In this document: positions 1 to 12,050 of the stretch, in pieces
How the letters are laid out: every line of letters starts with the position of its first letter
Position numbering within the stretch: position 1 is the first letter of the stretch
Assembly: GCA_963674595.2 (NCBI GenBank)
Contig: CAXXFV010000003.1
Coordinates: 96,001 to 160,000 of the forward strand
Length of the DNA stretch: 64,000 nucleotides
Direction of reading: 5' to 3'
DNA from: a bacterium
GTDB taxonomy: Bacteria; Zhuqueibacterota; Zhuqueibacteria; Residuimicrobiales; Krinioviventaceae
Notes under the pieces: generated by a model
What the model saw: only the letters and a program-made list of their open reading frames with translations
Told to the model about the DNA's origin: nothing
The model's database searches: none
Translations under genes and position numbers: made by a program

Positions 1-261
1 CCTGACAAACCGGAAATTACTAAAAGCATATCAAAACTATTATTAAACAGGTTGCTTGAGAAAGATTTAGATAGAGCCAAAATTATTGTAGATACAACCG
101 GTGGTAAAGTACCAATGTCAATTGGAGCGTTTCAGGCTGCCGAAGAATTAAATATTTCATCTATATATGTAATTGGAAGAGGTAAAAACGGATGGATCGA
201 AAAGCCCAAGAATCGAGAGGACGGTGTCCCAAAATTTATGAGTGACCATACTGAGTTCTAA
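1..261 (+). CDS. CARF-domain protein, C-terminal part (5' end outside window)
   Basis: Frame is open from base 1 (PDKPEITKSISKLLLNRLLEKDL...). It contains IIVDTTGGKVPMSIGA, the CARF D-x-T-G-G-x-K-x-M-S type motif, close to the C-terminus, and lies upstream of cas6. Confidence 0.75.
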   Translation, partial: PDKPEITKSISKLLLNRLLEKDLDRAKIIVDTTGGKVPMSIGAFQAAEELNISSIYVIGRGKNGWIEKPKNREDGVPKFMSDHTEF

Positions 262-283
262 GAATCAATCATAGGAGTTCACT

Positions 284-1390
284 ATGCCAAAATATACACA
301 TACCAAAGTTAAACGAAGGGGTAAAATAGACGGCCGTGACTGGAAATACAGTTTTTGGCCGTTTAAAATAGACAAACCACAGGAGCCAAATCCCGACCAG
401 GAACAACCGGCCCAGTTTGAAAATGAACTTTTAAAAGCAGCTGAAAACGACATATCGAAGGAGAAAGAAAACTGGGTAGATGTGGACAAAAAATTGAAAA
501 CTGAATATTGTCAAAGTTTACAAAGGCTTGAGCATGCGAACAAAAATTATATCAAAGAATCTGAAGAAGCAAAAGTGGCAAAAATAGATTTTGAGAAAGC
601 AAAGGCAAAATATGAGGAATTTACTCTCCCTCCTTTATCAGAAAAATGGCGCAATAGTTGGTTGTTTGTAATTGCCATTGGCGAGTTCCCGCTCAACAGC
701 ATTGTATTTCAATTGTTTGGAGCAAGCAGATTTGACACCTACCTCATGTCGTTAATACTCTGTATTGCCATTCCATTTTTGGGCCATGCATGGGGCGAAG
801 CATTAAAACAGGATCATAAAACTGGAGGTGACAAAGGATTTGTACTGGGCATTCCGATTGTAATACTCTTTATTTTAGGTGCAATTGCGTTTATTAGAGC
901 TAAATTCTTCGAGGCAATGGACACAATGGAATTGATGGGTGTAGAAATCACACCTATTCAAATGACAATTCTTTTTATCATAATAAACATTGGTATATTT
1001 TTGCTGGCTGTTATCATTTCATACGAGGCCAGCCATTCGAATAAAAAACAATATAAATCTGTTTGCTTTAGATACAAAGCGGCATTAAAATCGCTTGAAA
1101 AAGAGGCCACAGAAGCAACACAGGCGGGGCAGGCGTTAGCCCATGCAGAAACAGAATTCCAAACTGCTAGGCAAACAAGGGCTAAAACACATGAGAAATA
1201 CCTGCAAAAAGCAAACACCATTGTGGATTACACAGAGTGGCTTATTACAACATACAGGGCTGCAAATATGAAAGATCGTAAAATTATCCCACCATGTTTC
1301 AAGGAAGAACCTAAAATTCCTGCTATACCAAACGATTTATATGAATTAGACTGGAACTGTCCAAAATGGTTAAGCGGAGAAGAATTATGA
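284..1390 (+). CDS. Uncharacterised membrane protein (coiled coil - about 4 TM helices - coiled coil) in the cas operon
   Basis: GGAG RBS; four hydrophobic segments (approx. aa 125-250) flanked by charged helical regions; ATGA overlap with the next gene. Confidence 0.75.
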   Translation: MPKYTHTKVKRRGKIDGRDWKYSFWPFKIDKPQEPNPDQEQPAQFENELLKAAENDISKEKENWVDVDKKLKTEYCQSLQRLEHANKNYIKESEEAKVAKIDFEKAKAKYEEFTLPPLSEKWRNSWLFVIAIGEFPLNSIVFQLFGASRFDTYLMSLILCIAIPFLGHAWGEALKQDHKTGGDKGFVLGIPIVILFILGAIAFIRAKFFEAMDTMELMGVEITPIQMTILFIIINIGIFLLAVIISYEASHSNKKQYKSVCFRYKAALKSLEKEATEATQAGQALAHAETEFQTARQTRAKTHEKYLQKANTIVDYTEWLITTYRAANMKDRKIIPPCFKEEPKIPAIPNDLYELDWNCPKWLSGEEL

Positions 1391-2133
1391 AAAAATTATA
1401 TTCTGTTTTATTGCCACTTTTGCTCATTTCATGTTCTGGTCAAAAAACAGGTTCGAATAATAACAAATGTGTTTGTATATTGTTTGATCTCTCACTATCG
1501 ACACAATCGGACCAAATAAGAGATAACTATATGCTGGAATTGAGTAAAGTAATGGAGAAAATTGATCCTGGTGACGTGTTTATTGCAGCTCTTATTACAG
1601 GTCATTCAATAAGCGAACTTGAGTTTTGTGTTCAATACGAATTCAAATCATTTAATCCAACAAATGATAATGAATTACTTAGAAAAGCAGAATTGACAAA
1701 ATATCTAAAACAGCAATCAGTTACTAAAGACTCGCTTATTTCTATTATTGATTCTACACTACATAAAAAAATACGAATATTAAAAACAGAAATTATGGGT
1801 GCTTTGGATGTAGCAGCCCGTACATTTCGAAATTATAATATGTCCAAAAATGTATTGGTTGTTTTCTCTGATATGCTTGAAGATTCCCAATTTTACAAAT
1901 TTGAAAAAGAAAACTTAACATCCAAAAGAATTGCAGCAATAATAAATAATGAAAAATCCTGTGAACGCTTGCCAAGTCTTCAAGATGTGAAAATTTATGT
2001 AACAGGTGCCATGTCGAAGAACAGAAAACAGTTTTTAGCCGTTAGAAATTTTTGGATGAATTATTTTTCCGAATGTGGTGCATTACTGTCAGAAGACCAC
2101 TATGGCAGCATACTCATAAGATTTGATGAATGA
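1387..2133 (+). CDS. Lipoprotein with vWA-like (MIDAS) domain
   Basis: Start moved to ATG 1387 (MKKLYSVLLPLLLISC, lipobox). Motifs ILFDLSLS (DxSxS), TEIMGAL and LVVFSDM are typical of vWA folds. Confidence 0.7.
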   Translation: MKKLYSVLLPLLLISCSGQKTGSNNNKCVCILFDLSLSTQSDQIRDNYMLELSKVMEKIDPGDVFIAALITGHSISELEFCVQYEFKSFNPTNDNELLRKAELTKYLKQQSVTKDSLISIIDSTLHKKIRILKTEIMGALDVAARTFRNYNMSKNVLVVFSDMLEDSQFYKFEKENLTSKRIAAIINNEKSCERLPSLQDVKIYVTGAMSKNRKQFLAVRNFWMNYFSECGALLSEDHYGSILIRFDE

Positions 2134-2139
2134 TTAGAA

Positions 2140-3117
2140 TTGAAACCAACTATGCATCTACTTCCAATAGAAAAAATGCCGTTTAAATTTGCAGTTGTCA
2201 ATATGCAATTACAAGTACAATCGCCACTGTTTTTCAACAAGTATCCGGGTTTTATTTTGCGGAGTGGATTTGGTGCAGCTTTAAAAGAACTCTGTAGATA
2301 CGATTCAAGGCACATACCTTGTAACCAATGCCGGTTGGTGGACAGTTGCCCATATTCCTATATTTTTGAAACATATAATCCACAAGAACGCAAAATAGAT
2401 TTTAATGCAGAAAAATTTCCGCATCCATTTGTGTTTTATTTGCATGAAATTGATAATAAATATTTTCCATCAGGTTCAACATTAAATATAACTTTAACAT
2501 TGTTTGGAAATGGAATAGATTATTTGTTATTTTACATTTATGCCTTTGACGTTTTAGGAGAAATGGGTCTGGGGCCAAAACGTGGTAAATTTATGCTTAC
2601 CAAAGTTTCCGATCATTTTACAGGGAAATCTCTCTATGAAGCGCAAAGTAAAACGGTTTTAGAAAATCCTCATGCTATTACTTTGAACGATTTGGAACCT
2701 AATTTAAAAAAAATTAAGAATAGTAAAATTTTATTTATTATACCTACCACAATCGCTAAAAATAACAGAACAATAGATACACTAACATCAGAAATATTTA
2801 TACGCAGTTTACTTCGTCGGGCGTCGTTGCTTGCCAAACTGCATACCAGCAATAAATGGGAACTGGATTATATAAAAGTAATTGACAAATTTTGTAATAA
2901 AGTAGATATTAAAGAGTCACAACTGGTTGTGAAGCCTTATGACATATATTCATCAAGACAAGGCCGCTCACGTTTAATACATGCATTTAAAGGAAGTGCA
3001 TTAATAAAGGGAGAATTGACTCCATTTTGGCCTTTGTTAAAATTAGGTTCTTTTATGCATATTGGCAACAGCACAAGCCAAGGATTTGGTAAATATGAAC
3101 TTGCAGTGATTGAATAA
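2140..3117 (+). CDS. cas6: CRISPR pre-crRNA processing endoribonuclease Cas6
   Basis: LRSGFG motif, Cys cluster C-x6-C-x2-C-x5-CPY, PHPF, and C-terminal Gly-rich loop HIGNSTSQGFGKY; immediately precedes the array leader. Confidence 0.92.
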   Translation: MKPTMHLLPIEKMPFKFAVVNMQLQVQSPLFFNKYPGFILRSGFGAALKELCRYDSRHIPCNQCRLVDSCPYSYIFETYNPQERKIDFNAEKFPHPFVFYLHEIDNKYFPSGSTLNITLTLFGNGIDYLLFYIYAFDVLGEMGLGPKRGKFMLTKVSDHFTGKSLYEAQSKTVLENPHAITLNDLEPNLKKIKNSKILFIIPTTIAKNNRTIDTLTSEIFIRSLLRRASLLAKLHTSNKWELDYIKVIDKFCNKVDIKESQLVVKPYDIYSSRQGRSRLIHAFKGSALIKGELTPFWPLLKLGSFMHIGNSTSQGFGKYELAVIE

Positions 3118-3334: not shown

Positions 3335-4170
3335 GTCGGAATACTACCCAGGACTAATACTGGATTGAGACATAGCTATATACTGCTTGAAAAATCTTTG
3401 ACTCGCCGGGTCGGAATACTACCCAGGACTAATACTGGATTGAGACATTGGCTATTTCAATTAGATTATCAAAGTAACCTATTTGTCGGAATACTACCCA
3501 GGACTAATACTGGATTGAGACATCTTTAATAAAACTCCTTTACCAGTGTAGTCTCCCTCCGTCGGAATACTACCCAGGACTAATACTGGATTGAGACTTT
3601 AAAAATCTATTTTTGCCATCTCCGCAGCATCTCCGTCGGAATACTACCCAGGACTAATACTGGATTGAGACATTATAACCGGGTAAGCCAGGAAGATCAG
3701 TGGCGACCAGTCGGAATACTACCCAGGACTAATACTGGATTGAGACTTTTCAATAAGCAAACTCGTTGGCATTTGGATTTTTGATGTCGGAATACTACCC
3801 AGGACTAATACTGGATTGAGACAACATCTGAGAAACTATTGTAAGAAATGCCCAAATAATGTCGGAATACTACCCAGGACTAATACTGGATTGAGACTTT
3901 TTTCACATCTCTTTCAATTTGCCCACGTTGTGCAGTCGGAATACTACCCAGGACTAATACTGGATTGAGACAATTAAAGTGTAGAGCCACGAATGCGTGT
4001 CATGTAATGTCGGAATACTACCCAGGACTAATACTGGATTGAGACTTTATTTTTTTTGGAAGATTTCCAGGGCCACATAATGCGTCGGAATACTACCCAG
4101 GACTAATACTGGATTGAGACAGAATTCATATCCGTGAAATTGCAATAAAAAAATGGACACCTAGTTAAGT

Positions 4171-4992
4171 TTAAGCTGCTTTATTAAATTTTAAGAATTG
4201 TACTGGTGACATATTGCCCAAAAAGGAATGAATTCTTTTTCGGTTGTAAAATATTTCAATATATTCAAATATTGATTGCTTCGCAATTAATCGTGTTTCA
4301 TAAGTATGATGATAAATCAGTTCTTTTTTCAAAGTACCAAAAAAGCTTTCAGCAACAGCGTTGTCGTAGCAGTTTCCTTTTCCGGACATACTTTGGACCA
4401 TTTGAAAAAGAGCTAACATTTTTCTGAATTCTTTACATGCATATTGAACACCACGGTCCGAATGAAAAATCAAATCTGTTGAAGGACGAAAACGATGATA
4501 TGCATGTTTTAGGGCCGGGATTGTTGTTGAAGAAGCATGCAGGTTGTTACTCATGGCCCAGCCGACAACCTGGCGATTGTATAAATCAATGATCACTGTC
4601 AGGTACAACCATCCTTTGCGAGTCGGGATGTATGTAATATCAGAAACCCAGACTTTATTGGGTTGATTGACTGTAAAATTCTGTTGTAAAAGATTTGGTG
4701 ATATTGGCAGTCTGTGATCACTATTTGTGGTTACTTTGAATTTACGTTTTGTTTTTGCACAAATTTTGTTCTTTCTCATTAAACGAGCAACACGCGGACG
4801 GCTGACAATCAAGTTTTCCTTATGTAACTCTTGTGTTATTCTGGGACTGCCATAGCTTCCTCTGGATTCCTTGTGGATATGTTTGATCCGTTCAAGTATC
4901 TTTTTGTTTTCCAGTTCTCGTTGACTCATTGGTCGCTTGCTCCAGGTATAAAACCCGCCCCGGCTGACATTGAGAACCTGGCACATTTTCAC
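4171..4992 (-). CDS. IS3 transposase OrfB (DDE integrase core); probably joined to OrfA by -1 frameshift
   Basis: YGSPRI, WVSDITY, HSDRGVQY, DNAVAESFFGTLKKE, YNRKRIHS motifs; frame extends upstream (KFGFIQKHQQEFPIV). Confidence 0.95.
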   Translation of the reverse strand: MKMCQVLNVSRGGFYTWSKRPMSQRELENKKILERIKHIHKESRGSYGSPRITQELHKENLIVSRPRVARLMRKNKICAKTKRKFKVTTNSDHRLPISPNLLQQNFTVNQPNKVWVSDITYIPTRKGWLYLTVIIDLYNRQVVGWAMSNNLHASSTTIPALKHAYHRFRPSTDLIFHSDRGVQYACKEFRKMLALFQMVQSMSGKGNCYDNAVAESFFGTLKKELIYHHTYETRLIAKQSIFEYIEIFYNRKRIHSFLGNMSPVQFLKFNKAA

Positions 4993-5033
4993 TATTGGGA
5001 ATTCCTGTTGATGCTTTTGGATAAACCCAAACT

Positions 5034-5330
5034 TTAATGGGACGGTTTTGAGAAAATGGCCACAGCTTTTTTTAATATATCCCGCTCCAGTTTTACGTCT
5101 GCAAGTTCTTTACGCAGTTTCTGTATTTCATCACTTTCTTTGCTGTTCCCTAGTCCTGGAAAGGAATGTTCTTTATCAATTTTGTATTCTCGAACCCACT
5201 TGGAGAGAAGGTTAGGCTCAATACCAAGATTTCTGGCAACTTCTGAAGCATTACCATTGCTTTTAGAAAGTACAAGCTGAACAGCTTCTATTTTGAATTC
5301 TTTTGTGTAACGTCGTCTTCTGTTTGTCAT
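5034..5330 (-). CDS. IS3 transposase OrfA (HTH)
   Basis: RRYTKEFKIEAVQLV...VARNLGI...ERDILKKAVAIFSK, typical of OrfA. Confidence 0.93.
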   Translation of the reverse strand: MTNRRRRYTKEFKIEAVQLVLSKSNGNASEVARNLGIEPNLLSKWVREYKIDKEHSFPGLGNSKESDEIQKLRKELADVKLERDILKKAVAIFSKPSH

Positions 5331-6388
5331 GTGGACACCTCCTTTGGTTTATAATATAAAAAGTGCTTAACTTTGTGTCCACTAAAATATAGCAACTTTA
5401 CCGTTTTGAGGATTCCTGGTAATTTGTCGGAATACTACCCAGGACTAATACTGGATTGAGACTTTATAGGCACCTGGGTTAGTCCAGGTCAAGACCTTCA
5501 GTCGGAATACTACCCAGGACTAATACTGGATTGAGACATTTGGGATTTATTAGACTAAACAGTTCCAATCTCAGTCGGAATACTACCCAGGACTAATACT
5601 GGATTGAGACACATTGAATTAAAATTGTTATTGTATGTATTGCAAAGTCGGAATACTACCCAGGACTAATACTGGATTGAGACAAAAAGACCGCAATCGG
5701 CGATAAACTCGTCTCCTTCATGTCGGAATACTACCCAGGACTAATACTGGATTGAGACATTGAAATACTTCATTAGATGTGTCCTTAACCATTAACCGTC
5801 GGAATACTACCCAGGACTAATACTGGATTGAGACTTTCGTTGGATCCATTGGTTGACCATTAGACATGATTTGTCGGAATACTACCCAGGACTAATACTG
5901 GATTGAGACTACGGTTATCCACTACCGCTCCAACCAACATCAACGGTCGGAATACTACCCAGGACTAATACTGGATTGAGACATCCCCATCACGAGAGGT
6001 GATCCTCCGCATCCAGGTCGGAATACTACCCAGGACTAATACTGGATTGAGACATTTGTAAGAAATTTTTGATTATTATAAACTTTCAATGTCGGAATAC
6101 TACCCAGGACTAATACTGGATTGAGACATCCATGGCGCCGGTTCGTTAAACGACATATGAACGCCAGTCGGAATACTACCCAGGACTAATACTGGATTGA
6201 GACACTGCCAAATCATTTTCGATAAAATAAATCCATGCTTTGTCGGAATACTACTCAGGACTAATACTGGATTGAGACTTGAATATGAACCATTTGTGCA
6301 CGTATAAAAATTACCGTCGGAATACTACCCAGGACTAATACTGGATTGAGACTTTTATGTGTTTAATGTTATGATAAATTTTCGTTTT

Positions 6389-6554: not shown

Positions 6555-7667
6555 ATGTCCAAAACACTCATCAGCCTAATAAGCGATCAAACAATTCCCA
6601 ATTTATTGTTAATAAGGGAATTCCCTGAAGTAGAGAATCATGTCTTTATTACAACACCGGAAATGGAAGCAAAAAAAAAATCCGATCATTTACAAAATGC
6701 GGCGAACTTAGCAGACACAAAAATTAATAAACTGATTGTGCAAGCGGACTCGCTTCTTGATGTTGAGGAAAAACTCGGGAAAGCAAACTTGACCGAGCAA
6801 AATCAATATATCATCAATTTAACTGGTGGAACCAAATTGATGTCGATAGGACTGTATAACTTCTTTCGGAACTCAAAATTAATGTGCGATATGTATTATA
6901 TTGATATTCGCAAGCACACATATCGCAAGGTTTTTCCGGTGGTAAAGAAAAAGGAAAAACAGTTTAAAGGGAATTTGGGGCTACAAGAGTATTTAACCGG
7001 CTATGGTCTAGGCATAAAAAATTCGAATCAAATAAATGACCTTACTTGTGAGCCGGAGGTTACATCCTCATTTTATAAAAAATATCTTTCTTTTAGCGAT
7101 TTTGACCTCAGTTTGCTTTCAGCCTTGCGGGCCAATCGCAAAAGGAAATTACAACTGGATGCAACAGAAGCAACCATGTTAAAAAAACGATGGGGCATTA
7201 CGCTTTCTAATGAAGGATTTATAGATAAAAGTGAAATTCATTTTTTAACTGGTGAATGGTTTGAGGAATATGTTTATTCGTGGATAAAATCATACCTCAA
7301 TCTAAAGGATGAGCAAATCGGCACCGGAGTATCTATTACGCGTAAGGAAGTAGAAAATGAATTTGATGTTTTGTTCTATCATAATCATACTTTGTCAGTA
7401 ATTGAATGTAAAACTGGTTTGTGGAACAGTACTGCGAATCGGAATATTCTTGGAGATACACTGTATAAACTGGACGCATTAAGAAGCGATTTTGGCCTTC
7501 GTGTTAAACCGTATATATTCACTCTAGCAGAACGTGGGGACGAAAAGTATAATATCCGGGAACATCACGAAGAACGGGCAAAATGGATGGGTGTTGAGAT
7601 TGTTGACAGATCAATTTTATTAAATCCGGAAAAGCGGGCAATGTTGATGAATAAAATTAAGGGATGA
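6555..7667 (+). CDS. card1: Card1/Can2-like cOA-activated nuclease (CARF + DUF1887 PD-(D/E)xK)
   Basis: N-terminal SLISDQTIPN, CARF motif NLTGGTKLMS, nuclease motifs GEWFEEYV and NEFDV...IECKTG. Confidence 0.88.
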   Translation: MSKTLISLISDQTIPNLLLIREFPEVENHVFITTPEMEAKKKSDHLQNAANLADTKINKLIVQADSLLDVEEKLGKANLTEQNQYIINLTGGTKLMSIGLYNFFRNSKLMCDMYYIDIRKHTYRKVFPVVKKKEKQFKGNLGLQEYLTGYGLGIKNSNQINDLTCEPEVTSSFYKKYLSFSDFDLSLLSALRANRKRKLQLDATEATMLKKRWGITLSNEGFIDKSEIHFLTGEWFEEYVYSWIKSYLNLKDEQIGTGVSITRKEVENEFDVLFYHNHTLSVIECKTGLWNSTANRNILGDTLYKLDALRSDFGLRVKPYIFTLAERGDEKYNIREHHEERAKWMGVEIVDRSILLNPEKRAMLMNKIKG

Positions 7668-7751: not shown

Positions 7752-10724
7752 ATGTCTAAATTATTCGACCAGCTCACAAGTGATACCACTCTAACGACTG
7801 CATGGGAAAAGGTAAGATCAAACGCCGGGGCAGCAGGTGTCGATCAGATTACTGTGAGACACTTTGAGGAAAATGTCAATGAAAAGCTGATTATCCTCAA
7901 AACCTCTCTAATCGACGGTTCATACCAGCCCTTGCCTTTAAAAACATTTCGAATTAATAAAGAGGACGGACGAAAACGTACTTTACATATTCCCACAGTT
8001 CGAGATAGGATTGTCGCTCAAGCTTTAGTGATGGTAATTCAGCCGATTTATGAAAAGATATTCCACAATTGCAGCTATGCATACAGGCCGGGATTATCTT
8101 CTAAAAAAGCATTGGATCGTGTTGAACGAAATCTAAAGCGTGGCAGGGTTTGGGTTCTTAACCTTGATATTATGGATTTTTTTGACAGTGTTAACAGAGC
8201 CCTTTTGATGAATTTGCTTGAACAGGAAATAGCAGATAAAAATATCCAGAAAATAGTCCGGTTGCTAATAGATTCATTTGAAAATGAAACCAACTCGGGG
8301 ATTGCACAAGGTCTGCCCCTCTCCCCTTTGCTATCCAATATTTATTTACACCCGTTGGATGACCGACTCGTGCGTGCACAATGGAATTACATCCGATATT
8401 CGGATAATATTTTAGTATTGGACAAAGAAGAATCACAGATAAACAAAGCATTTGATTGGATTAAAGAAGAGATGGAAAAACTGGATTTGACATGGAGCGA
8501 AGAAAAAACAGCTATTGTTCATTTAAAATCAGGCTTTTCATTCCTTGGTTTTCATTTCAATGAAAAGGGTAAACAGCCGGATAGACCTGCATTCGAAAGA
8601 CTGGACAAACGCATAGGTAGTCTGCTGGGAAAAGCTTTTCAATATACCGATGCACAAATGAAAAGCAAATTAGAGGCAATACTTCGTGGTTGGCTTAATT
8701 ACTTTGATATAAATGCAGATGATAAAAAAGAAATATTGGCTCAAGTTGATCAGAATATTCCGGGAGACGACAATGCACTTCCACGCAAAATAATCAAAGT
8801 AGTATTGGCATATCAGCTGGGAGATGAAGAAAGTGCACGGAATGAATTGAAAGCAGAAGATATTATGACTTCGCAGGATGCAAGGCTTAATTTCCAGTGG
8901 GGAATTATATGTGATATATTAGGTTTCCAAAATGAGGCAAGAGACAGCTATTTAGCAGCCTTTCGACAGGAACCAAACGATCCCGAAACAGCCTTTCAAA
9001 TAGGCTTATACTATTTAAAGCGAAACCAGCACGACCAGGCCATTCGTTATTTACAAAAATCAGTACAGTTAGATTCTGAAACTGCATTATACCAATTTAC
9101 ACTTGGCATTGCCCTAAAAAATTATTCACTGCATGGCGCTGCCGGAAAAGCTTTGAAAAAGGCATACGACCTGGAACCATCCCTCAGACATATATTAGAC
9201 AAAACTCCCAAACCAAGTGATAACGATGAGAGATACAAAAAATTTTCAGATAATGATATTGATTTATTTCTTAGACTATTCAATGGTCGGGAAGGTGTGC
9301 ATGCAATACAATGGCTTAATGATGATGGTAGAACGGGATACTCTAGTGTAAAGAACCGGATTTCTCCTTCTGACATAAAAGCCCACTGGCAGGGTGGTAT
9401 TACGCTGGGCATGTACTTGATGCGGATGGATAATACTGTCAGCCATCTTGTTTTTGATATTGATGTTACCAGACAGGCTAGGAGTTTAATTTCTGATGAG
9501 GAAAATTTGCATGAATGGCAGGAGTTTGTACTGAATGATGTGCATCTTGTCAGGTCAGTTTTAAACGATCTGGGCATTCATGCGGTGGCCGAAGACTCCG
9601 GTTACAAAGGTGCTCATTTATGGGTATTTTTTAACGAACCTCAACCTGCCCGACGTATTATTAATTTTGCGAGAAAAGTAATCCAAAAAGCAGGGCCACC
9701 ACCAACAGGACTTCACCGGGAAATATTCCCCAATCAACCTTCTGTTTCGGAAAAAGCACTAGGACCTCTCGTCAAAATTCCCATGGGTTTGCACAAGTTG
9801 ACGCAAAAGAGATGCGAATTTCTAAATGAAACAGGCCAACCGGTTAATAGTCCATTTGACTTTATAAAAAAAATAAAGGCTGTAACAACAAAAGAACTGC
9901 TTACAGCTTTCGAGAAAACCAGGTCAACTGCAAGGCTCGACAAAACCAAAATAAAAAAACAAGACAGTGAAAAGCTTGACAAAATTTTTAATGGTTGTAA
10001 CGTTCTTGCCTATTTGCAGGAAAAGGCCATAAAAGAACACCAACTATCCCACATGGACCGATTAACCTTATTGTGTGTTATCTCTTTCCTTGGCGAGGCA
10101 GGGAGGCAAAAGCTACATGAAATTATCAGTAACTCAACAAATTACGATTTCAAAATTACAGAAAGATGGTATCAACGAAAACGGGGTTATCCTGTCAGTT
10201 GTCCAAAAATTCGAATTTGGCAAAGCAACATTACCCCTGCTGTAGGCTGCTATTGTAAGTTTAAAGAAAATCCTGGAAATTATCCTTCTCCTCTACTTCA
10301 CGCAGATGAAAATTATATCAGTAAATTAAAAAAGAAAATTAACAAAGAACTGAAACAAAACAAAAGCATTAAAGATTCGCCAAAACAAAGCCAAGACTAT
10401 GCTGAGCCCAAAGCAAACAATACCGAAAAAGACAAACACGAAACGAGATCAAATGACAAAATAGTCGAGAACAATAAATCTCAATTGAATAACAAGGAGT
10501 CAAATAATGGTTCAGGAGTCCAAAAAGAAATATTAGAAGATATTGTAGAAAAATATTTAAAATTGCTGACGAAAAAGCGGAATATTGAACGACAACTTTT
10601 ACAGATTGAAGAAAAACTAGACCAAATAGCAACAGATAATGGTGGCGATACAATTGAGACCAAGATGGGAAAATTGATAAAAAAGACGGAAAACGGCAAA
10701 ACAAAATGGCTATTAGAATTATAA
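7752..10724 (+). CDS. CRISPR-associated reverse transcriptase - TPR - AEP primase-polymerase fusion (CART-CAPP type)
   Basis: RT motifs AAGVDQ, IPTVRDR, SYAYRPG, LDIMDFFD, QGLPLSP, YSDN, FLGF. TPR repeats at about aa 380-475. AEP motifs FDID, SGYKGAHLW, EIFP/VKIP. Cys-containing PriCT-like domain. Directly upstream of cas1. Confidence 0.9.
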   Translation: MSKLFDQLTSDTTLTTAWEKVRSNAGAAGVDQITVRHFEENVNEKLIILKTSLIDGSYQPLPLKTFRINKEDGRKRTLHIPTVRDRIVAQALVMVIQPIYEKIFHNCSYAYRPGLSSKKALDRVERNLKRGRVWVLNLDIMDFFDSVNRALLMNLLEQEIADKNIQKIVRLLIDSFENETNSGIAQGLPLSPLLSNIYLHPLDDRLVRAQWNYIRYSDNILVLDKEESQINKAFDWIKEEMEKLDLTWSEEKTAIVHLKSGFSFLGFHFNEKGKQPDRPAFERLDKRIGSLLGKAFQYTDAQMKSKLEAILRGWLNYFDINADDKKEILAQVDQNIPGDDNALPRKIIKVVLAYQLGDEESARNELKAEDIMTSQDARLNFQWGIICDILGFQNEARDSYLAAFRQEPNDPETAFQIGLYYLKRNQHDQAIRYLQKSVQLDSETALYQFTLGIALKNYSLHGAAGKALKKAYDLEPSLRHILDKTPKPSDNDERYKKFSDNDIDLFLRLFNGREGVHAIQWLNDDGRTGYSSVKNRISPSDIKAHWQGGITLGMYLMRMDNTVSHLVFDIDVTRQARSLISDEENLHEWQEFVLNDVHLVRSVLNDLGIHAVAEDSGYKGAHLWVFFNEPQPARRIINFARKVIQKAGPPPTGLHREIFPNQPSVSEKALGPLVKIPMGLHKLTQKRCEFLNETGQPVNSPFDFIKKIKAVTTKELLTAFEKTRSTARLDKTKIKKQDSEKLDKIFNGCNVLAYLQEKAIKEHQLSHMDRLTLLCVISFLGEAGRQKLHEIISNSTNYDFKITERWYQRKRGYPVSCPKIRIWQSNITPAVGCYCKFKENPGNYPSPLLHADENYISKLKKKINKELKQNKSIKDSPKQSQDYAEPKANNTEKDKHETRSNDKIVENNKSQLNNKESNNGSGVQKEILEDIVEKYLKLLTKKRNIERQLLQIEEKLDQIATDNGGDTIETKMGKLIKKTENGKTKWLLEL

Positions 10725-10777
10725 TAAATACCAAAATCAGCATCCAGTTCTTTTAAATGAGTTAAAGGTCAATTTTT

Positions 10778-11767
10778 ATGAGCAATCTTTATGTTACCGA
10801 GCAAAACTCTGTAATTAGACTATCATCCCGCACTTTGCAAATTACAAAGGGAAAGGAAAAGATAGCACAAGTTCCAATGATAAATGTTGACAGCATTCTC
10901 GTTTTTGGAAATCCTCAAATTACAACTCAGGCAATGGCTGTTTTATTGGAAGAGGGAATTGATGTCGCTTTTCTATCGACAAACGGGAAACTGCGTGGAC
11001 GGTTAACATCATCTGTGTCCAAAAACGTACTGTTACGAGTTGCTCAATACGAACGTCAATTGGATGATGAATTTCAGGTTAATTTGGCTCGAACGATTGT
11101 GAAGTCGAAAATCCGTAACGGGCGTAAAGTAATAAAGCGCTTTTTATACAACCATAGTAATTTTGATTTTTCCAACGAACTTTTATTAATTGAAACGACT
11201 TTAAAAAAACTGGATAACCAAAAAACGGTTAATAGTCTTATGGGTTCCGAAGGGATTGCAACCGCTGCCTATTTTAAGGCTTTTGGAAAGATGTTTTTAA
11301 AAGACTTTCGTTTTGAAACGAGAAGCCGCCGTCCTCCCAAAGATCCTGTGAACGCTTTATTAAGTTTTGGCTATACACTCCTTACTAATGAGATTTTGGC
11401 CCTGGTAACAGCGCATGGACTTGATCCGCATATTGGTTTTTTACATGGTATTGTTTATGGAAGGCCATCGCTTGCTTTGGATATCGTTGAAGAGTTCCGC
11501 CACCCTGTTATTGACAGGTTTGTGCTGAATTTATTCAATTATCGCAAGCTGAATAAAAATGATTTTGAAAAAAGTGAAAATGGAATATTATTAACAGATG
11601 AAGGAAGGAAAACATTTTTTGCTCATTATGATAAGTTACTAAAGCGTAACCTGAGCAAAGAAAAAGGCCCCATTACCTTACGGGATTTATTAAAAAGACA
11701 AGTACGTTGTATGACAGCAACAATAAAAAACAATGCTCCATATAAACCATATAAATTTCAAGCTTAA
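10778..11767 (+). CDS. cas1: CRISPR-associated endonuclease Cas1
   Basis: LYVTEQ, EGIATAAYF, RRPPKDPVNALLSFGY, GFLH and LALDIVEEFR motifs. Confidence 0.98.
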   Translation: MSNLYVTEQNSVIRLSSRTLQITKGKEKIAQVPMINVDSILVFGNPQITTQAMAVLLEEGIDVAFLSTNGKLRGRLTSSVSKNVLLRVAQYERQLDDEFQVNLARTIVKSKIRNGRKVIKRFLYNHSNFDFSNELLLIETTLKKLDNQKTVNSLMGSEGIATAAYFKAFGKMFLKDFRFETRSRRPPKDPVNALLSFGYTLLTNEILALVTAHGLDPHIGFLHGIVYGRPSLALDIVEEFRHPVIDRFVLNLFNYRKLNKNDFEKSENGILLTDEGRKTFFAHYDKLLKRNLSKEKGPITLRDLLKRQVRCMTATIKNNAPYKPYKFQA

Positions 11768-11768
11768 A

Positions 11769-12050
11769 ATGTTTGTTATTGTTTCATACGACATTGTGGA
11801 TGATAAAAACCGGACCAAGATTGCAAAAAAGATGTGCAACTACGGTTCTCGCATTCAGTATAGCGTATTTGAGTGCAATATAAATAAAACCCAATACAAA
11901 GAAATGAAAAAACAGTTAAAAAAGTTTATAGATCCGGAAAAAGACAGCATTCGATTTTTTAGACTATGTGGTGAATGTAAACGTAATGTAGAATCTTTAG
12001 GAATAAAGAAAGGGTATGTTCCAGAAAAGGATGAGGCCATTATAGTATAA
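11769..12050 (+). CDS. cas2: CRISPR-associated Cas2
   Basis: Start moved to ATG 11769 (MFVIVSYDI...RIQYSVFEC...DSIRFFRLC). Confidence 0.97.
   Translation: MFVIVSYDIVDDKNRTKIAKKMCNYGSRIQYSVFECNINKTQYKEMKKQLKKFIDPEKDSIRFFRLCGECKRNVESLGIKKGYVPEKDEAIIV

What the first reader, a model, noticed from the sequence alone, without database searches (positions are those of the whole stretch)
1..2133. Candidate new type III membrane effector module: CARF protein + 4-TM coiled-coil protein + vWA lipoprotein directly before cas6
Seen: three closely spaced genes (22-bp gap, ATGA overlap, 6 bp to cas6) inside the cas operon. Known: CARF domains sense Cas10-made cyclic oligoadenylates, and described membrane effectors (Cam1, Csx23, CorA) are single proteins. 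I know of no type III ancillary module that includes a periplasmic vWA/MIDAS lipoprotein. Inference: a trans-envelope complex (cytoplasmic cOA sensor, inner-membrane channel, periplasmic metal-binding partner) causing depolarisation or blocking phage entry or extrusion.
Basis: partly seen in the sequence, partly recalled or inferred. Interest (0 to 1): 0.75.

Follow-up and report, generated by a model that had tools for sequence, protein, structure and literature searches.

The report
Membrane protein plus vWA lipoprotein pair
Inside a type III CRISPR operon sit a Cam1-like membrane sensor and a conserved, uncharacterised gene pair (an inner-membrane coiled-coil protein and a periplasmic metal-site lipoprotein) that looks like a new two-part envelope accessory of CRISPR signalling.

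Summary
Three tightly spaced genes lie between the type III-D effector genes and cas6, with the 22-nt gap, the ATGA overlap and the 6-nt gap as stated.

The interpretation needs three corrections:
- **The CARF protein is a membrane effector, not a cytoplasmic sensor.** It is a 243-aa protein with two TM helices and a CARF domain, of the Cam1 family (PDB Cam1, E 1.2e-13).
- **The conserved unit is the pair, not the trio.** The lipoprotein gene follows the 4TM gene in 15 of 15 close loci with room, and one natural fusion exists (4TM, a fifth TM helix, vWA). A CARF-TM gene lies directly upstream in only 2 of 16 loci. Three other loci carry CorA, two of them with NrN.
- **The vWA/MIDAS call is right.** The AF2 model has pLDDT 88, Foldseek returns vWA domains down to E 3.9e-7, and DxSxS..T..D is invariant.

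New findings:
- The 4TM family is large (1153 representative clusters) and unannotated.
- A sister clade is fused to a CalpL-type SAVED4 sensor, which marks the 4TM domain as a nucleotide-controlled membrane module.
- Distant pairs sit outside CRISPR loci, beside T4CP and relaxase genes on Bacteroidia mobile elements and at a conserved chromosomal site in one family.

Verdict: a new two-component variant of type III membrane ancillary modules. The mechanism is inferred, not shown.

The parts
1..261 (+). 3' end of a 243-aa gene (it starts 470 nt upstream of the window, at L002:17530). Two N-terminal TM helices plus a CARF domain; Cam1 family (CARF8 CARF_TM).
   Evidence: Translation. PADLOC PDLC01946 CARF8--CARF_TM 2e-34 and 'CARF, 2 TMs' 1.2e-19. 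PDB Cam1 8t64 E 1.2e-13 over residues 61-215. Two hydrophobic segments at about 1-32 and 38-59.
284..1390 (+). 368-aa inner-membrane protein with four TM helices (about 126-251). The N-terminal part (1-125) and C-terminal part (252-368) are predicted cytoplasmic and form long helices. Invariant in the close family: E134, N138, N235 and a conserved tip (G13, D16, G17, R18, W25, P26 ... Y324, R325, N328, R332, P336, F339).
   Evidence: No family in Pfam, NCBIfam or PADLOC. No Foldseek PDB match at E<=0.001. 1153 representative clusters related at E<=0.001.
1387..2133 (+). 248-aa lipoprotein (lipobox L-I-S-C, Cys16) with a vWA-like fold and the MIDAS motif D34-x-S36-x-S38 ... T134 ... D162.
   Evidence: Alignment of 21 rows with these residues invariant. 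AF2 pLDDT 88.1, pTM 0.84. Foldseek PDB: 113 matches at E<=0.001, led by vWA domains (ITIH1 3.9e-07, Ku80, CMG2, factor B, alpha2delta, CLCA1, NorD).
2140..3117 (+). cas6
   Evidence: Pfam CRISPR_Cas6 5.9e-14.
3335..6352 (+). CRISPR array of 24 copies of a 37-nt repeat, in two blocks (3335-4120 and 5426-6352), split by an IS3-like insertion.
   Evidence: the repeat finder family D1. Two minus-strand ORFs at 4171-4992 and 5034-5330 lie between the blocks. The 'IS3-like' label is read from the translations and comes from no family search.
6555..7667 (+). Card1-type CARF nuclease, a second cOA-dependent effector of the locus.
   Evidence: Pfam CARF_Card1 8.5e-33 and Card1_endonuc 1.4e-18.
7752..12050 (+). 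Adaptation module: a 990-aa RT / TPR / AEP primase (TOTE type) / Mu Gam-like fusion, then cas1 and cas2.
   Evidence: Pfam RVT_1 5.5e-31, AEP-TOTE 1.7e-37, Mu_Gam-Sipho_Gp157-TOTE 2.2e-13. The cas1 and cas2 labels rest on reciprocal blastp matches to cas1/cas2-like ORFs of other loci and on PADLOC Cas1 hits to the L003 fusion that matches them.

Best explanation
The window opens in the ancillary part of a type III-D CRISPR-Cas operon.

Gene 1 is a Cam1-family effector with two TM helices and a CARF domain. It most likely senses cA4 and perturbs the inner membrane by itself.

Genes 2 and 3 are a separate, conserved two-gene envelope module. Its first part is an inner-membrane protein whose four TM helices carry an invariant Glu/Asn/Asn set. 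Its N- and C-terminal helices form a long cytoplasmic stalk ending in a conserved tip. Its second part is a periplasmic lipoprotein with a vWA fold and a complete MIDAS metal site.

I propose that the 4TM protein is a signal-gated membrane effector, acting by ion leak or depolarisation through the Glu/Asn site. The signal would be read at the cytoplasmic tip. In a sister clade a SAVED4 cyclic-oligoadenylate sensor is fused there in cis. In the split CRISPR-linked form a partner would supply it in trans, here plausibly the neighbouring Cam1-like protein. The vWA lipoprotein would dock on the periplasmic TM3-TM4 loop, whose invariant E210 is a candidate MIDAS ligand, and gate, stabilise or anchor the membrane part. 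This resembles the way extracellular vWA subunits serve eukaryotic channels.

Shown here: the gene anatomy, the folds, the motifs, the pairing, the fusions and the genomic associations.

Inferred: the topology (positive-inside rule plus the fifth TM helix of the fusion), effector activity, ion conduction, MIDAS-loop contact and the source of the signal.
For: Pairing:
- The lipoprotein gene directly follows the 4TM gene in 15 of 15 close-subfamily loci that have downstream sequence.
- The same holds in 12 of 12 loci of the distant f15 subfamily with room.
- P0072 is a natural fusion of 4TM, a hydrophobic segment and the vWA domain. It clusters inside the 55-row clade that holds the window's protein (support 100).

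vWA and MIDAS.

Topology:
- Flanks 100-125, 172-187 and 247-270 carry 6, 3 and 6 K+R.
- Loops 145-153 and 205-226 carry 1 and 2 K+R.
- The fusion needs a fifth TM helix to place the vWA domain outside the cytoplasm.

Sensor fusion:
- 6 of the 150 best representatives are 643-699 aa with a C-terminal SAVED domain. Pfam SAVED gives 8.2e-11 to 9.6e-06 for the 5 of the 6 that were scanned; P0110 was not in that call.
- PADLOC assigns all 6 to SAVED4 / CRISPR-Lon models, and no model covers the 4TM part.
- A PDB SAVED protein matches at 9.4e-06.
- The 6 form one clade (support 99) inside a 92-row clade (support 98) that also holds all 8 CRISPR-linked rows. The f15 and Bacteroidia subfamilies fall outside it.
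- SAVED4 of CRISPR-Lon accommodates cA4 (passages of bioRxiv 10.1101/2021.12.06.471393).

CRISPR linkage of the close subfamily:
- cas or CARF genes are visible in 11 of 16 loci, of both III-B and III-D type.
- In 6 of these 11 loci a membrane-bound type III ancillary gene lies in the same locus. These are CARF8 CARF_TM directly upstream in the window and in L040; NrN-CorA directly downstream in L004 and L010; CorA in L011; and Mem_01 plus a TM-Csx15 upstream in L006.

Membrane-embedded residues: Glu and Asn in TM1 and Asn in TM4 are kept in all four subfamilies aligned.
Against: - No sensor domain was found in the window's 4TM protein.
- The close pair also stands alone. L008 and G035 (L005 plus L067) show no cas gene within about 8-10 kb on either side. 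This rests on blastp against my own reference set and a few profile scans, so sensitivity is limited.
- Three loci (L004, L010, L011) carry CorA, two of them with NrN. That effector type is described as responding to SAM-AMP, not cOA (passage in PMC11229360). No CARF was detected there, so a cOA-to-CARF-to-4TM relay cannot be general.
- Distant homologous pairs lie in contexts that do not suggest abortive toxicity. One is a conserved chromosomal site in 15 of 19 genomes of family f15. The other is directly upstream of a T4CP gene on Bacteroidia mobile elements, in 14 of 17 loci.
- Whether the SAVED-fused forms have a vWA partner or lie in CRISPR loci could not be checked, because they come from metagenomes only.
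- The window's Cas10d reads NGDD where GGDD is usual, and no HD motif was seen. Signal synthesis is therefore assumed from the three CARF genes present.
- Foldseek TM-scores for the vWA model are modest (0.34-0.52).
Confidence: 0.45

Rival explanations
1. One reading: an obligate three-protein trans-envelope complex in which the CARF protein is the cOA sensor, the 4TM protein is the channel and the vWA lipoprotein is the periplasmic partner.
For: - A CARF8 CARF_TM gene lies directly upstream of the pair in two loci whose CARF-TM proteins are too diverged for blastp to link them. These are the window (PDLC01946, 2e-34) and L040 (PDLC01943, 1.8e-48).
- The spacing is tight and no terminator-like site was found in the stretch scanned.
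- The SAVED fusions show that the 4TM domain can be put under a cOA sensor.
Against: - Only 2 of 16 close loci have a CARF-TM gene next to the pair.
- In L003 and L011 the pair abuts cmr6. In L004 and L010 it abuts NrN-CorA. In L006 it abuts a TM-Csx15.
- The CARF protein is homologous to Cam1, which is reported as a self-sufficient depolarising effector (abstract of PMC10808066).
- The CARF protein is itself membrane-embedded, not cytoplasmic.
Confidence: 0.15
2. The pair is a constitutive envelope barrier or DNA-traffic module, for example entry or superinfection exclusion, or a membrane dock for a DNA-translocating ATPase. It acts independently of nucleotide signalling and travels with defence and mobile-element genes.
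For: - In a sample of 401 Bacteroidia genomes, 17 besides G167 hold a distant pair.
- In 14 of those 17 loci a T4CP homologue follows the lipoprotein gene.
- In L062 the run is 4TM, lipoprotein, T4CP (PF02534, 2.5e-61), a NikA-like ORF, relaxase (5.2e-18) and ArdC.
- In L065 the gap between the lipoprotein gene and the T4CP gene is 4 nt.
- In the close locus L007 the pair is followed by ClpP and an 859-aa HerA/TrwB-like ATPase, before RT-cas1-cas2.
- The close pair also occurs alone (L008, G035).
- The layout recalls traS-traT-traD of the F plasmid. This is recalled from memory and comes from no call.
Against: - The SAVED4 fusions argue for nucleotide control in the clade nearest to the window's protein.
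- The MIDAS motif differs in the mobile-element branch (D-x-T-D/E, and S in place of T134), so the function may have diverged.
- No Pfam match to exclusion proteins, or to any other family, was found for the window's lipoprotein or for the L062 one.
Confidence: 0.2
3. The pair is an envelope housekeeping or cargo module with no functional tie to CRISPR, and the linkage reflects defence-island hitch-hiking.
For: - The f15 subfamily sits at a conserved chromosomal site next to GCS2 and M29-peptidase genes in 15 of 19 genomes, with no cas hit.
- Two close loci lack cas genes.
- The window genome has a single copy.
Against: - The close pair lies inside cas operons of two subtypes, at varied positions: between cmr6 and RT-cas1, between a CARF gene and cas6, and ahead of cas10.
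- The window shows overlap or near-overlap of reading frames.
- G166 carries both the chromosomal f15-type pair (C3) and the CRISPR-embedded close pair (C12), which behave as distinct lineages.
Confidence: 0.1
4. The pair serves spacer acquisition by RT-Cas1, for example by tethering the adaptation machinery at the membrane where foreign nucleic acid enters.
For: - An RT or RT-Cas1 gene is the next gene after the pair in L003, L006 and L040.
- It lies two genes away in L007.
- It lies in the same locus in the window.
Against: - In L004 and L010 the pair heads a III-B effector operon with no cas1 in the 10 kb seen.
- RT-Cas1 is common in these type III loci anyway.
- The SAVED fusions point to signalling, not adaptation.
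Confidence: 0.05

Closest known systems
Cam1 (CRISPR-associated membrane protein 1; TM helices plus CARF, activated by cA4)
   Same: The window's first gene shares the architecture (N-terminal TM helices, C-terminal CARF) and is homologous to the solved Cam1 (PDB 8t64, E 1.2e-13; PADLOC CARF8 CARF_TM). It lies in a type III locus.
   Different: It is 243 aa with two predicted TM helices, and identity to Cam1 is low. No ligand or pore data exist for it. Cam1 is not described with a 4TM/vWA partner pair in the texts I saw (abstract of PMC10808066; passages of PMC11229360).
TM-SAVED and TM-CARF single-chain effectors of type III CRISPR and CBASS (PADLOC 'SAVED4--SAVED_TM', 'CARF, 4 TMs'; Csx23, Cam2, Cap1, Chp1)
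   Same: A membrane domain under the control of a cyclic-oligonucleotide sensor. The sister clade of the window's 4TM protein carries a SAVED4 domain.
   Different: No PADLOC model covers the 4TM coiled-coil domain itself. The window's protein has no sensor domain, and it comes with a periplasmic lipoprotein. None of the texts I saw describe that for these effectors.
CorA with NrN, the SAM-AMP-responsive type III-B membrane effector
   Same: Also a membrane ancillary protein of type III loci. The pair lies next to NrN-CorA in L004 and L010, and in the same operon as CorA in L011.
   Different: No sequence relation to the pair. CorA has its own soluble sensor domain.
Extracellular vWA/MIDAS subunits of eukaryotic channels (alpha2delta of CaV channels; CLCA1 with TMEM16A)
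   Same: A vWA domain with a MIDAS site on the outer face of the membrane, paired with a multi-pass membrane protein. Both appear among the Foldseek matches (6jp5_F, 7vfs_B, 8if4_A, 6pyo_B).
   Different: This is a functional analogy only, with identity of 12-16%. That the MIDAS site of those subunits engages a channel loop is recalled, not taken from a call.
vWA-MoxR-VMAP ternary systems and other vWA-related CRISPR-linked genes (Altae-Tran et al. 2023, PMC10910872)
   Same: That paper reports vWA-related systems, some with transmembrane proteins, associated with CRISPR loci (passage seen).
   Different: No MoxR ATPase or VMAP gene is seen next to the pair. The vWA protein here is a secreted lipoprotein. 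Whether one of that paper's UAS clusters equals this pair cannot be told, because its supplements were closed.
traS-traT-traD layout of conjugative plasmids (entry and surface exclusion genes ahead of the coupling protein)
   Same: A positional analogy for the distant Bacteroidia branch: an inner-membrane protein, then a lipoprotein of about 240 aa, then T4CP and relaxase.
   Different: No sequence or fold relation was shown. The F-plasmid layout is recalled from memory.

Membership tests
Cam1 family (gene 1) | N-terminal transmembrane helices | tested here: met
   Two hydrophobic segments at about residues 1-32 and 38-59. PADLOC 'CARF, 2 TMs' 1.2e-19.
Cam1 family (gene 1) | C-terminal CARF domain homologous to Cam1 | tested here: met
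   phmmer against PDB: Cam1 8t64 E 1.2e-13, residues 61-215. Pfam CARF_Card1 1.3e-4, below its cutoff. PADLOC CARF8--CARF_TM 2e-34.
Cam1 family (gene 1) | cA4 binding and membrane depolarisation | not testable with these tools
   Needs biochemistry and physiology.
vWA domain with MIDAS (gene 3) | vWA (Rossmann-like alpha/beta) fold | tested here: met
   AF2 pLDDT 88.1. Foldseek PDB: 113 matches at E<=0.001, the best all vWA domains, with TM-scores 0.34-0.52.
vWA domain with MIDAS (gene 3) | MIDAS residues DxSxS ... T ... D | tested here: met
   D34, S36, S38, T134 and D162 are invariant in 21 rows. The f15 branch keeps DxSxS and D. The Bacteroidia branch has DxT(D/E).
vWA domain with MIDAS (gene 3) | Match to a curated vWA sequence model | tested here: not met
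   No Pfam family at E<=1 and no credible NCBIfam or PADLOC hit. The fusion P0072 gives VWA_2 at only 0.051.
Bacterial lipoprotein (gene 3) | Signal peptide with a lipobox Cys | tested here: met
   M-K-K-L-Y-S-V-L-L-P-L-L-L-I-S-C. Cys16 is nearly invariant, and one row (L013) lacks it. No dedicated signal-peptidase II predictor was run.
CARF/SAVED-type type III ancillary effector (gene 2) | A CARF or SAVED sensor domain in the protein | tested here: not met
   None in the window's protein. A sensor is present only in the sister clade of fusions.
CARF/SAVED-type type III ancillary effector (gene 2) | Genomic association with cas10 loci | tested here: met
   11 of 16 close loci show cas or CARF genes, 2 of 16 clearly do not, and 3 are too short to tell.
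MotA/ExbB/TolQ-type stator proteins (gene 2) | Fold similarity | tested here: not met
   ExbB and TolQ appear only at Foldseek E 0.76-1.0, with TM-scores of 0.14 or less. The wider structural library was not available.
TraT/TraS-like exclusion proteins (genes 2 and 3) | Sequence relation to known exclusion families | tested here: not met
   No Pfam match for the window's proteins or for the L062 distant pair. Only the gene order resembles.

The most novel reading that the evidence does not exclude
The pair is an inside-out envelope switch. A cytoplasmic alarm is read at the tip of the coiled-coil stalk: cA4 through a fused SAVED4 domain, or a neighbouring membrane effector in the split form. 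The alarm is carried across the inner membrane to the MIDAS-vWA lipoprotein, which then changes the periplasm or outer envelope so that further phage or plasmid DNA cannot enter. This would be an inducible exclusion system. Its relatives on Bacteroidia mobile elements would perform constitutive entry exclusion beside the coupling protein.
Probability: 0.1. Interest if true: 0.85.

Novelty: new variant of a known kind. Interest (0 to 1): 0.62.

Why it matters
The type III CRISPR membrane effectors named in the texts I saw (Cam1, Csx23, CorA, Cam2, Cap1, Chp1) are described there as single inner-membrane proteins.

A two-part module that reaches into the periplasm through a metal-site vWA lipoprotein would extend CRISPR signalling to the envelope. 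It would also give a tractable test case, because a sister clade has a built-in SAVED4 sensor.

The 4TM family has at least 1153 representative clusters. No curated family matched its members in the scans run here. It recurs in three conflict-related or mobile settings:
- type III CRISPR loci;
- SAVED fusions;
- T4CP and relaxase modules of Bacteroidia mobile elements.

Working out one member would therefore annotate many genes.

Tried and rejected
- **Complex prediction.** The 4TM protein was folded with the mature lipoprotein. The verdict was 'no answer' (score 0.00, mark 0.32). It is reported here only and used neither for nor against binding.
- **Fold of the 4TM protein.** Foldseek against PDB gave no match at E<=0.001, only generic coiled coils. 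The pdb_via_wide library was not on the machine.
- **ESM Atlas.** The 4TM protein returned only 'hypothetical protein' clusters without Pfam families.
- **Context of the SAVED-fused and vWA-fused proteins.** They are held only in metagenome sources. A viral-contig scan found none. tblastn against plasmids found none for the fusion or for the window's protein.
- **The 128-aa ORF as a ring nuclease.** The B116/DUF1874 idea rests on Pfam at only 6.9e-4, below the cutoff. PDB phmmer gave nothing. Left open.
- **MotA/ExbB-like stator idea.** Rejected for lack of fold support.
- **Literature.** Four searches found no description of this pair: 'type III CRISPR' + membrane + vWA; Cam1 + CARF + 'membrane depolarization'; CARF8 / SAVED4; 'type III CRISPR' + lipoprotein + accessory + transmembrane. 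The supplements of PMC10910872, which list vWA-related CRISPR-linked clusters, could not be seen and may hold it.
- **Limits of the cas annotation.** Many neighbouring ORFs were labelled only by blastp against my own reference set. 'No cas seen' therefore has limited sensitivity.
- **Unpublished genome.** G158 is flagged as unpublished. It is one of the 15 f15 genomes counted (locus L023). Without it the count is 14 of 18, and no other claim rests on it.


Full report
**1. The observation**

The window is G000:C3:96001-160000.
- An ORF running off the window start ends at 261.
- A 22-nt gap follows, then a 368-aa ORF at 284-1390.
- An ATGA overlap leads into a 248-aa ORF at 1387-2133.
- Six nt later a TTG opens a 325-aa Cas6 ORF (Pfam 5.9e-14).

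I fetched 18 kb upstream. It holds a type III-D effector operon:
- cas10d (PADLOC Cas10d, 8.1e-110);
- four RAMP genes, one of them a cold-shock-domain fusion to a TIGR03986 RAMP;
- csx19;
- a 279-aa CARF7 protein;
- a 128-aa ORF;
- the full 243-aa CARF gene whose end is in the window.

Downstream lie a 24-repeat CRISPR array split by an insertion element, a Card1-type CARF nuclease, an RT-AEP primase fusion, cas1 and cas2. No + strand terminator-like site lies between the CARF7 gene and the end of L002 at window position 1990; the lipoprotein-cas6 junction was not scanned.

**2. The CARF protein**

It has two N-terminal hydrophobic helices. It matches PADLOC CARF8--CARF_TM (2e-34) and 'CARF, 2 TMs'. 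It is homologous to the solved Cam1 (8t64, E 1.2e-13).

It is therefore itself a membrane protein, of a family reported to depolarise the membrane on cA4 binding (abstract of PMC10808066; passage in PMC11229360). It is not a soluble sensor that needs a separate channel.

**3. The lipoprotein**

Word-index search found 11 clusters. A 21-row alignment with locus-derived sequences shows two things:
- a nearly invariant lipobox Cys;
- invariant D34-x-S36-x-S38, T134 and D162, the MIDAS pattern.

AF2 gave pLDDT 88.1. Foldseek against PDB gave 113 matches at E<=0.001, led by vWA domains (ITIH1 3.9e-07, Ku80, CMG2, factor B, alpha2delta, CLCA1, NorD; TM-scores 0.34-0.52). No curated sequence model recognises it.

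**4. The 4TM protein**

- Word-index search found 16 clusters. An exhaustive profile search found 1153 representative clusters at E<=0.001, 578 at 1e-10 and 175 at 1e-30.
- AF2 (pLDDT 85) shows a small N-terminal beta-hairpin, a helix at 44-112, four TM helices and a helix at 254-331.
- The charge distribution fits both termini being cytoplasmic.
- The invariant residues cluster in three places: the N-terminal motif (G13, D16, G17, R18, W25, P26), the C-terminal motif (Y324, R325, N328, R332, P336, F339) and the membrane (E134, N138, N235).
- The membrane Glu/Asn/Asn set and the C-terminal YR..N...R...P.CF motif persist in all four subfamilies aligned.
- Foldseek found no relative. The Atlas found only unnamed clusters.

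**5. The pair is the unit**

I collected 16 distinct loci of the close subfamily:
- the window itself;
- L003-L005;
- L006-L015;
- L020 and L040.

L019, L021, L043 and L018 are duplicates of L003, L005, L004 and L040.

In all 15 loci with sequence after the 4TM gene, the lipoprotein gene follows directly. L015 is cut inside the 4TM gene. P0072 is a natural fusion of 4TM, a hydrophobic helix and the vWA domain. This links the two proteins physically and places the vWA domain on the far side of the membrane.

**6. Genomic company of the close subfamily**

Sources.

| Locus | Gene order around the pair |
|---|---|
| Window | CARF7, 128-aa ORF, CARF-TM, pair, cas6 |
| L040 | Card1-like, 138-aa ORF, CARF8 CARF_TM (1.8e-48), pair, RT |
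| L004, L010 | pair, NrN (DHH_CorA, about 1e-82), CorA (about 1e-120), cmr1 ... cas10b |
| L011 | CorA ... cmr6, pair |
| L006 | CARF7, Mem_01, TM-Csx15, pair, RT, cas1 |
| L003 | cmr6, pair, RT-Cas1 fusion (its N-terminal third unassigned), cas2 |
| L007 | pair, ClpP, HerA/TrwB-like ATPase, RT, cas1, cas2 |
| L009 | pair, cas10d |
| L012 | M48 peptidase, pair, small array, Cas7 (III-D) |
| L015 | CARF3, 4TM gene (cut) |

- That is 11 of 16 loci with cas or CARF genes.
- L008 and G035 (L005 plus L067) show none within 8-10 kb on both sides.
- L013, L014 and L020 are too short to tell. L020 shows only an ORF resembling the window's 128-aa ORF; that likeness is by eye and was not computed.
- A CARF-TM gene is the upstream neighbour in 2 of 16 loci, so the trio is not conserved.

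**7. Sensor fusions**

Six of the 150 best representatives are 643-699 aa and end in a SAVED domain. Five of the six were scanned with Pfam. PADLOC assigns all six to SAVED4 / CRISPR-Lon models, with no model over the 4TM part. A PDB SAVED protein also matches.

I built a FastTree of 144 rows, rooted on the Bacteroidia branch. It carries local supports only, and several long branches are flagged.
- The six fusions form one clade (support 99).
- That clade lies inside a 92-row clade (support 98) that holds every CRISPR-linked row.
- The f15 and Bacteroidia rows lie outside it.

The SAVED4 domain of CRISPR-Lon accommodates cA4 (passages). This is the strongest pointer that the 4TM domain is a module driven by a cyclic-oligoadenylate sensor.

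**8. Distant branches outside CRISPR**

In the window's phylum (167 genomes), 15 of 19 genomes of family f15 hold a distant pair. One of these, G158, is flagged as unpublished. The 4TM gene scores about 1e-33 and the lipoprotein gene about 1e-46 in local HMM searches. The lipoprotein gene is adjacent in 12 of 12 loci with room. The site is conserved, beside GCS2 and M29-peptidase genes, with no cas hit.

In a sample of 401 Bacteroidia genomes, 17 besides G167 hold a more distant pair. In 14 of these 17 loci a T4CP homologue follows. L062 reads 4TM, lipoprotein, T4CP, a NikA-like ORF, relaxase, ArdC. There the MIDAS motif is altered.

**9. Reading**

The anatomy, the pairing and the associations are shown. 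The function is inferred.

I favour a signal-gated membrane effector with a periplasmic vWA partner (0.45).
- For it: the SAVED4 fusions are the nearest relatives of the CRISPR-linked proteins; the membrane holds a conserved carboxylate/amide set; and the pair sits beside other membrane effectors.
- Against it: the CorA loci without a CARF gene, the stand-alone copies and the non-defence branches argue against a simple cOA relay. These keep an exclusion or DNA-traffic function alive as a rival (0.2).

**10. Novelty**

No paper found by four searches describes the pair. One paper mentions vWA-related, TM-containing CRISPR-linked clusters (PMC10910872, passage). Its supplements were closed, so prior listing cannot be excluded.

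I rate it a new two-component variant of type III membrane ancillary modules, with interest 0.62.

Noticed in passing
window 3335-6352: The CRISPR array (24 copies of a 37-nt repeat) is split into two blocks by an insertion. The insertion carries two minus-strand ORFs (273 aa and 98 aa) that look like an IS3-type transposase pair.
   Followed up: partly
window 7752-10724: A 990-aa fusion of reverse transcriptase, TPR repeats, a TOTE-type archaeo-eukaryotic primase and a Mu Gam/Gp157-like domain sits directly before cas1-cas2. It is an unusual adaptation-side protein.
   Followed up: no
L002:13622-15817 (upstream of the window): A cold-shock domain is fused to the N-terminus of a TIGR03986 type III RAMP (731 aa), which also resembles the C-terminal part of the III-E gRAMP.
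   Followed up: no
L002:7071-8705: The Cas10d has NGDD where GGDD is usual in the cyclase palm, and no HD motif was seen. Three CARF genes in the locus nevertheless imply cOA signalling.
   Followed up: partly
L002:17033-17419 and L020:2107-2434: A 128-aa ORF with a weak STIV B116-like (DUF1874) hit (6.9e-4) lies before the CARF-TM gene. A look-alike follows the pair in a genome of the same family. It may be a ring nuclease, but PDB phmmer gave nothing.
   Followed up: partly
L002:15921-16760: The CARF7 protein (279 aa) matches the CARF-RelE model only over its first 275 of 359 positions. It seems to lack the RelE part, and NCBIfam gives a weak 'ring nuclease' hit.
   Followed up: no
L007:2177-5330: In one close locus the pair is followed by a ClpP protease gene and an 859-aa HerA/TrwB-like ATPase gene, before RT-cas1-cas2.
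   Followed up: partly
L003:3163-5982: A 939-aa fusion carries RT (about residues 270-540) and Cas1 (about 609-939) directly after the pair. Its N-terminal third is unassigned; I did not see a Cas6 hit among the rows shown.
   Followed up: no
L062:9392-15114 and 13 further Bacteroidia loci: Distant relatives of the pair sit directly upstream of the T4CP, relaxase and ArdC mobilisation genes of Bacteroidia mobile elements.
   Followed up: yes
L066:8356-8697: In one Bacteroidia genome the distant pair lies next to an integron-cassette-type protein (VCH_CASS14, 1.7e-33) rather than a T4CP gene.
   Followed up: no
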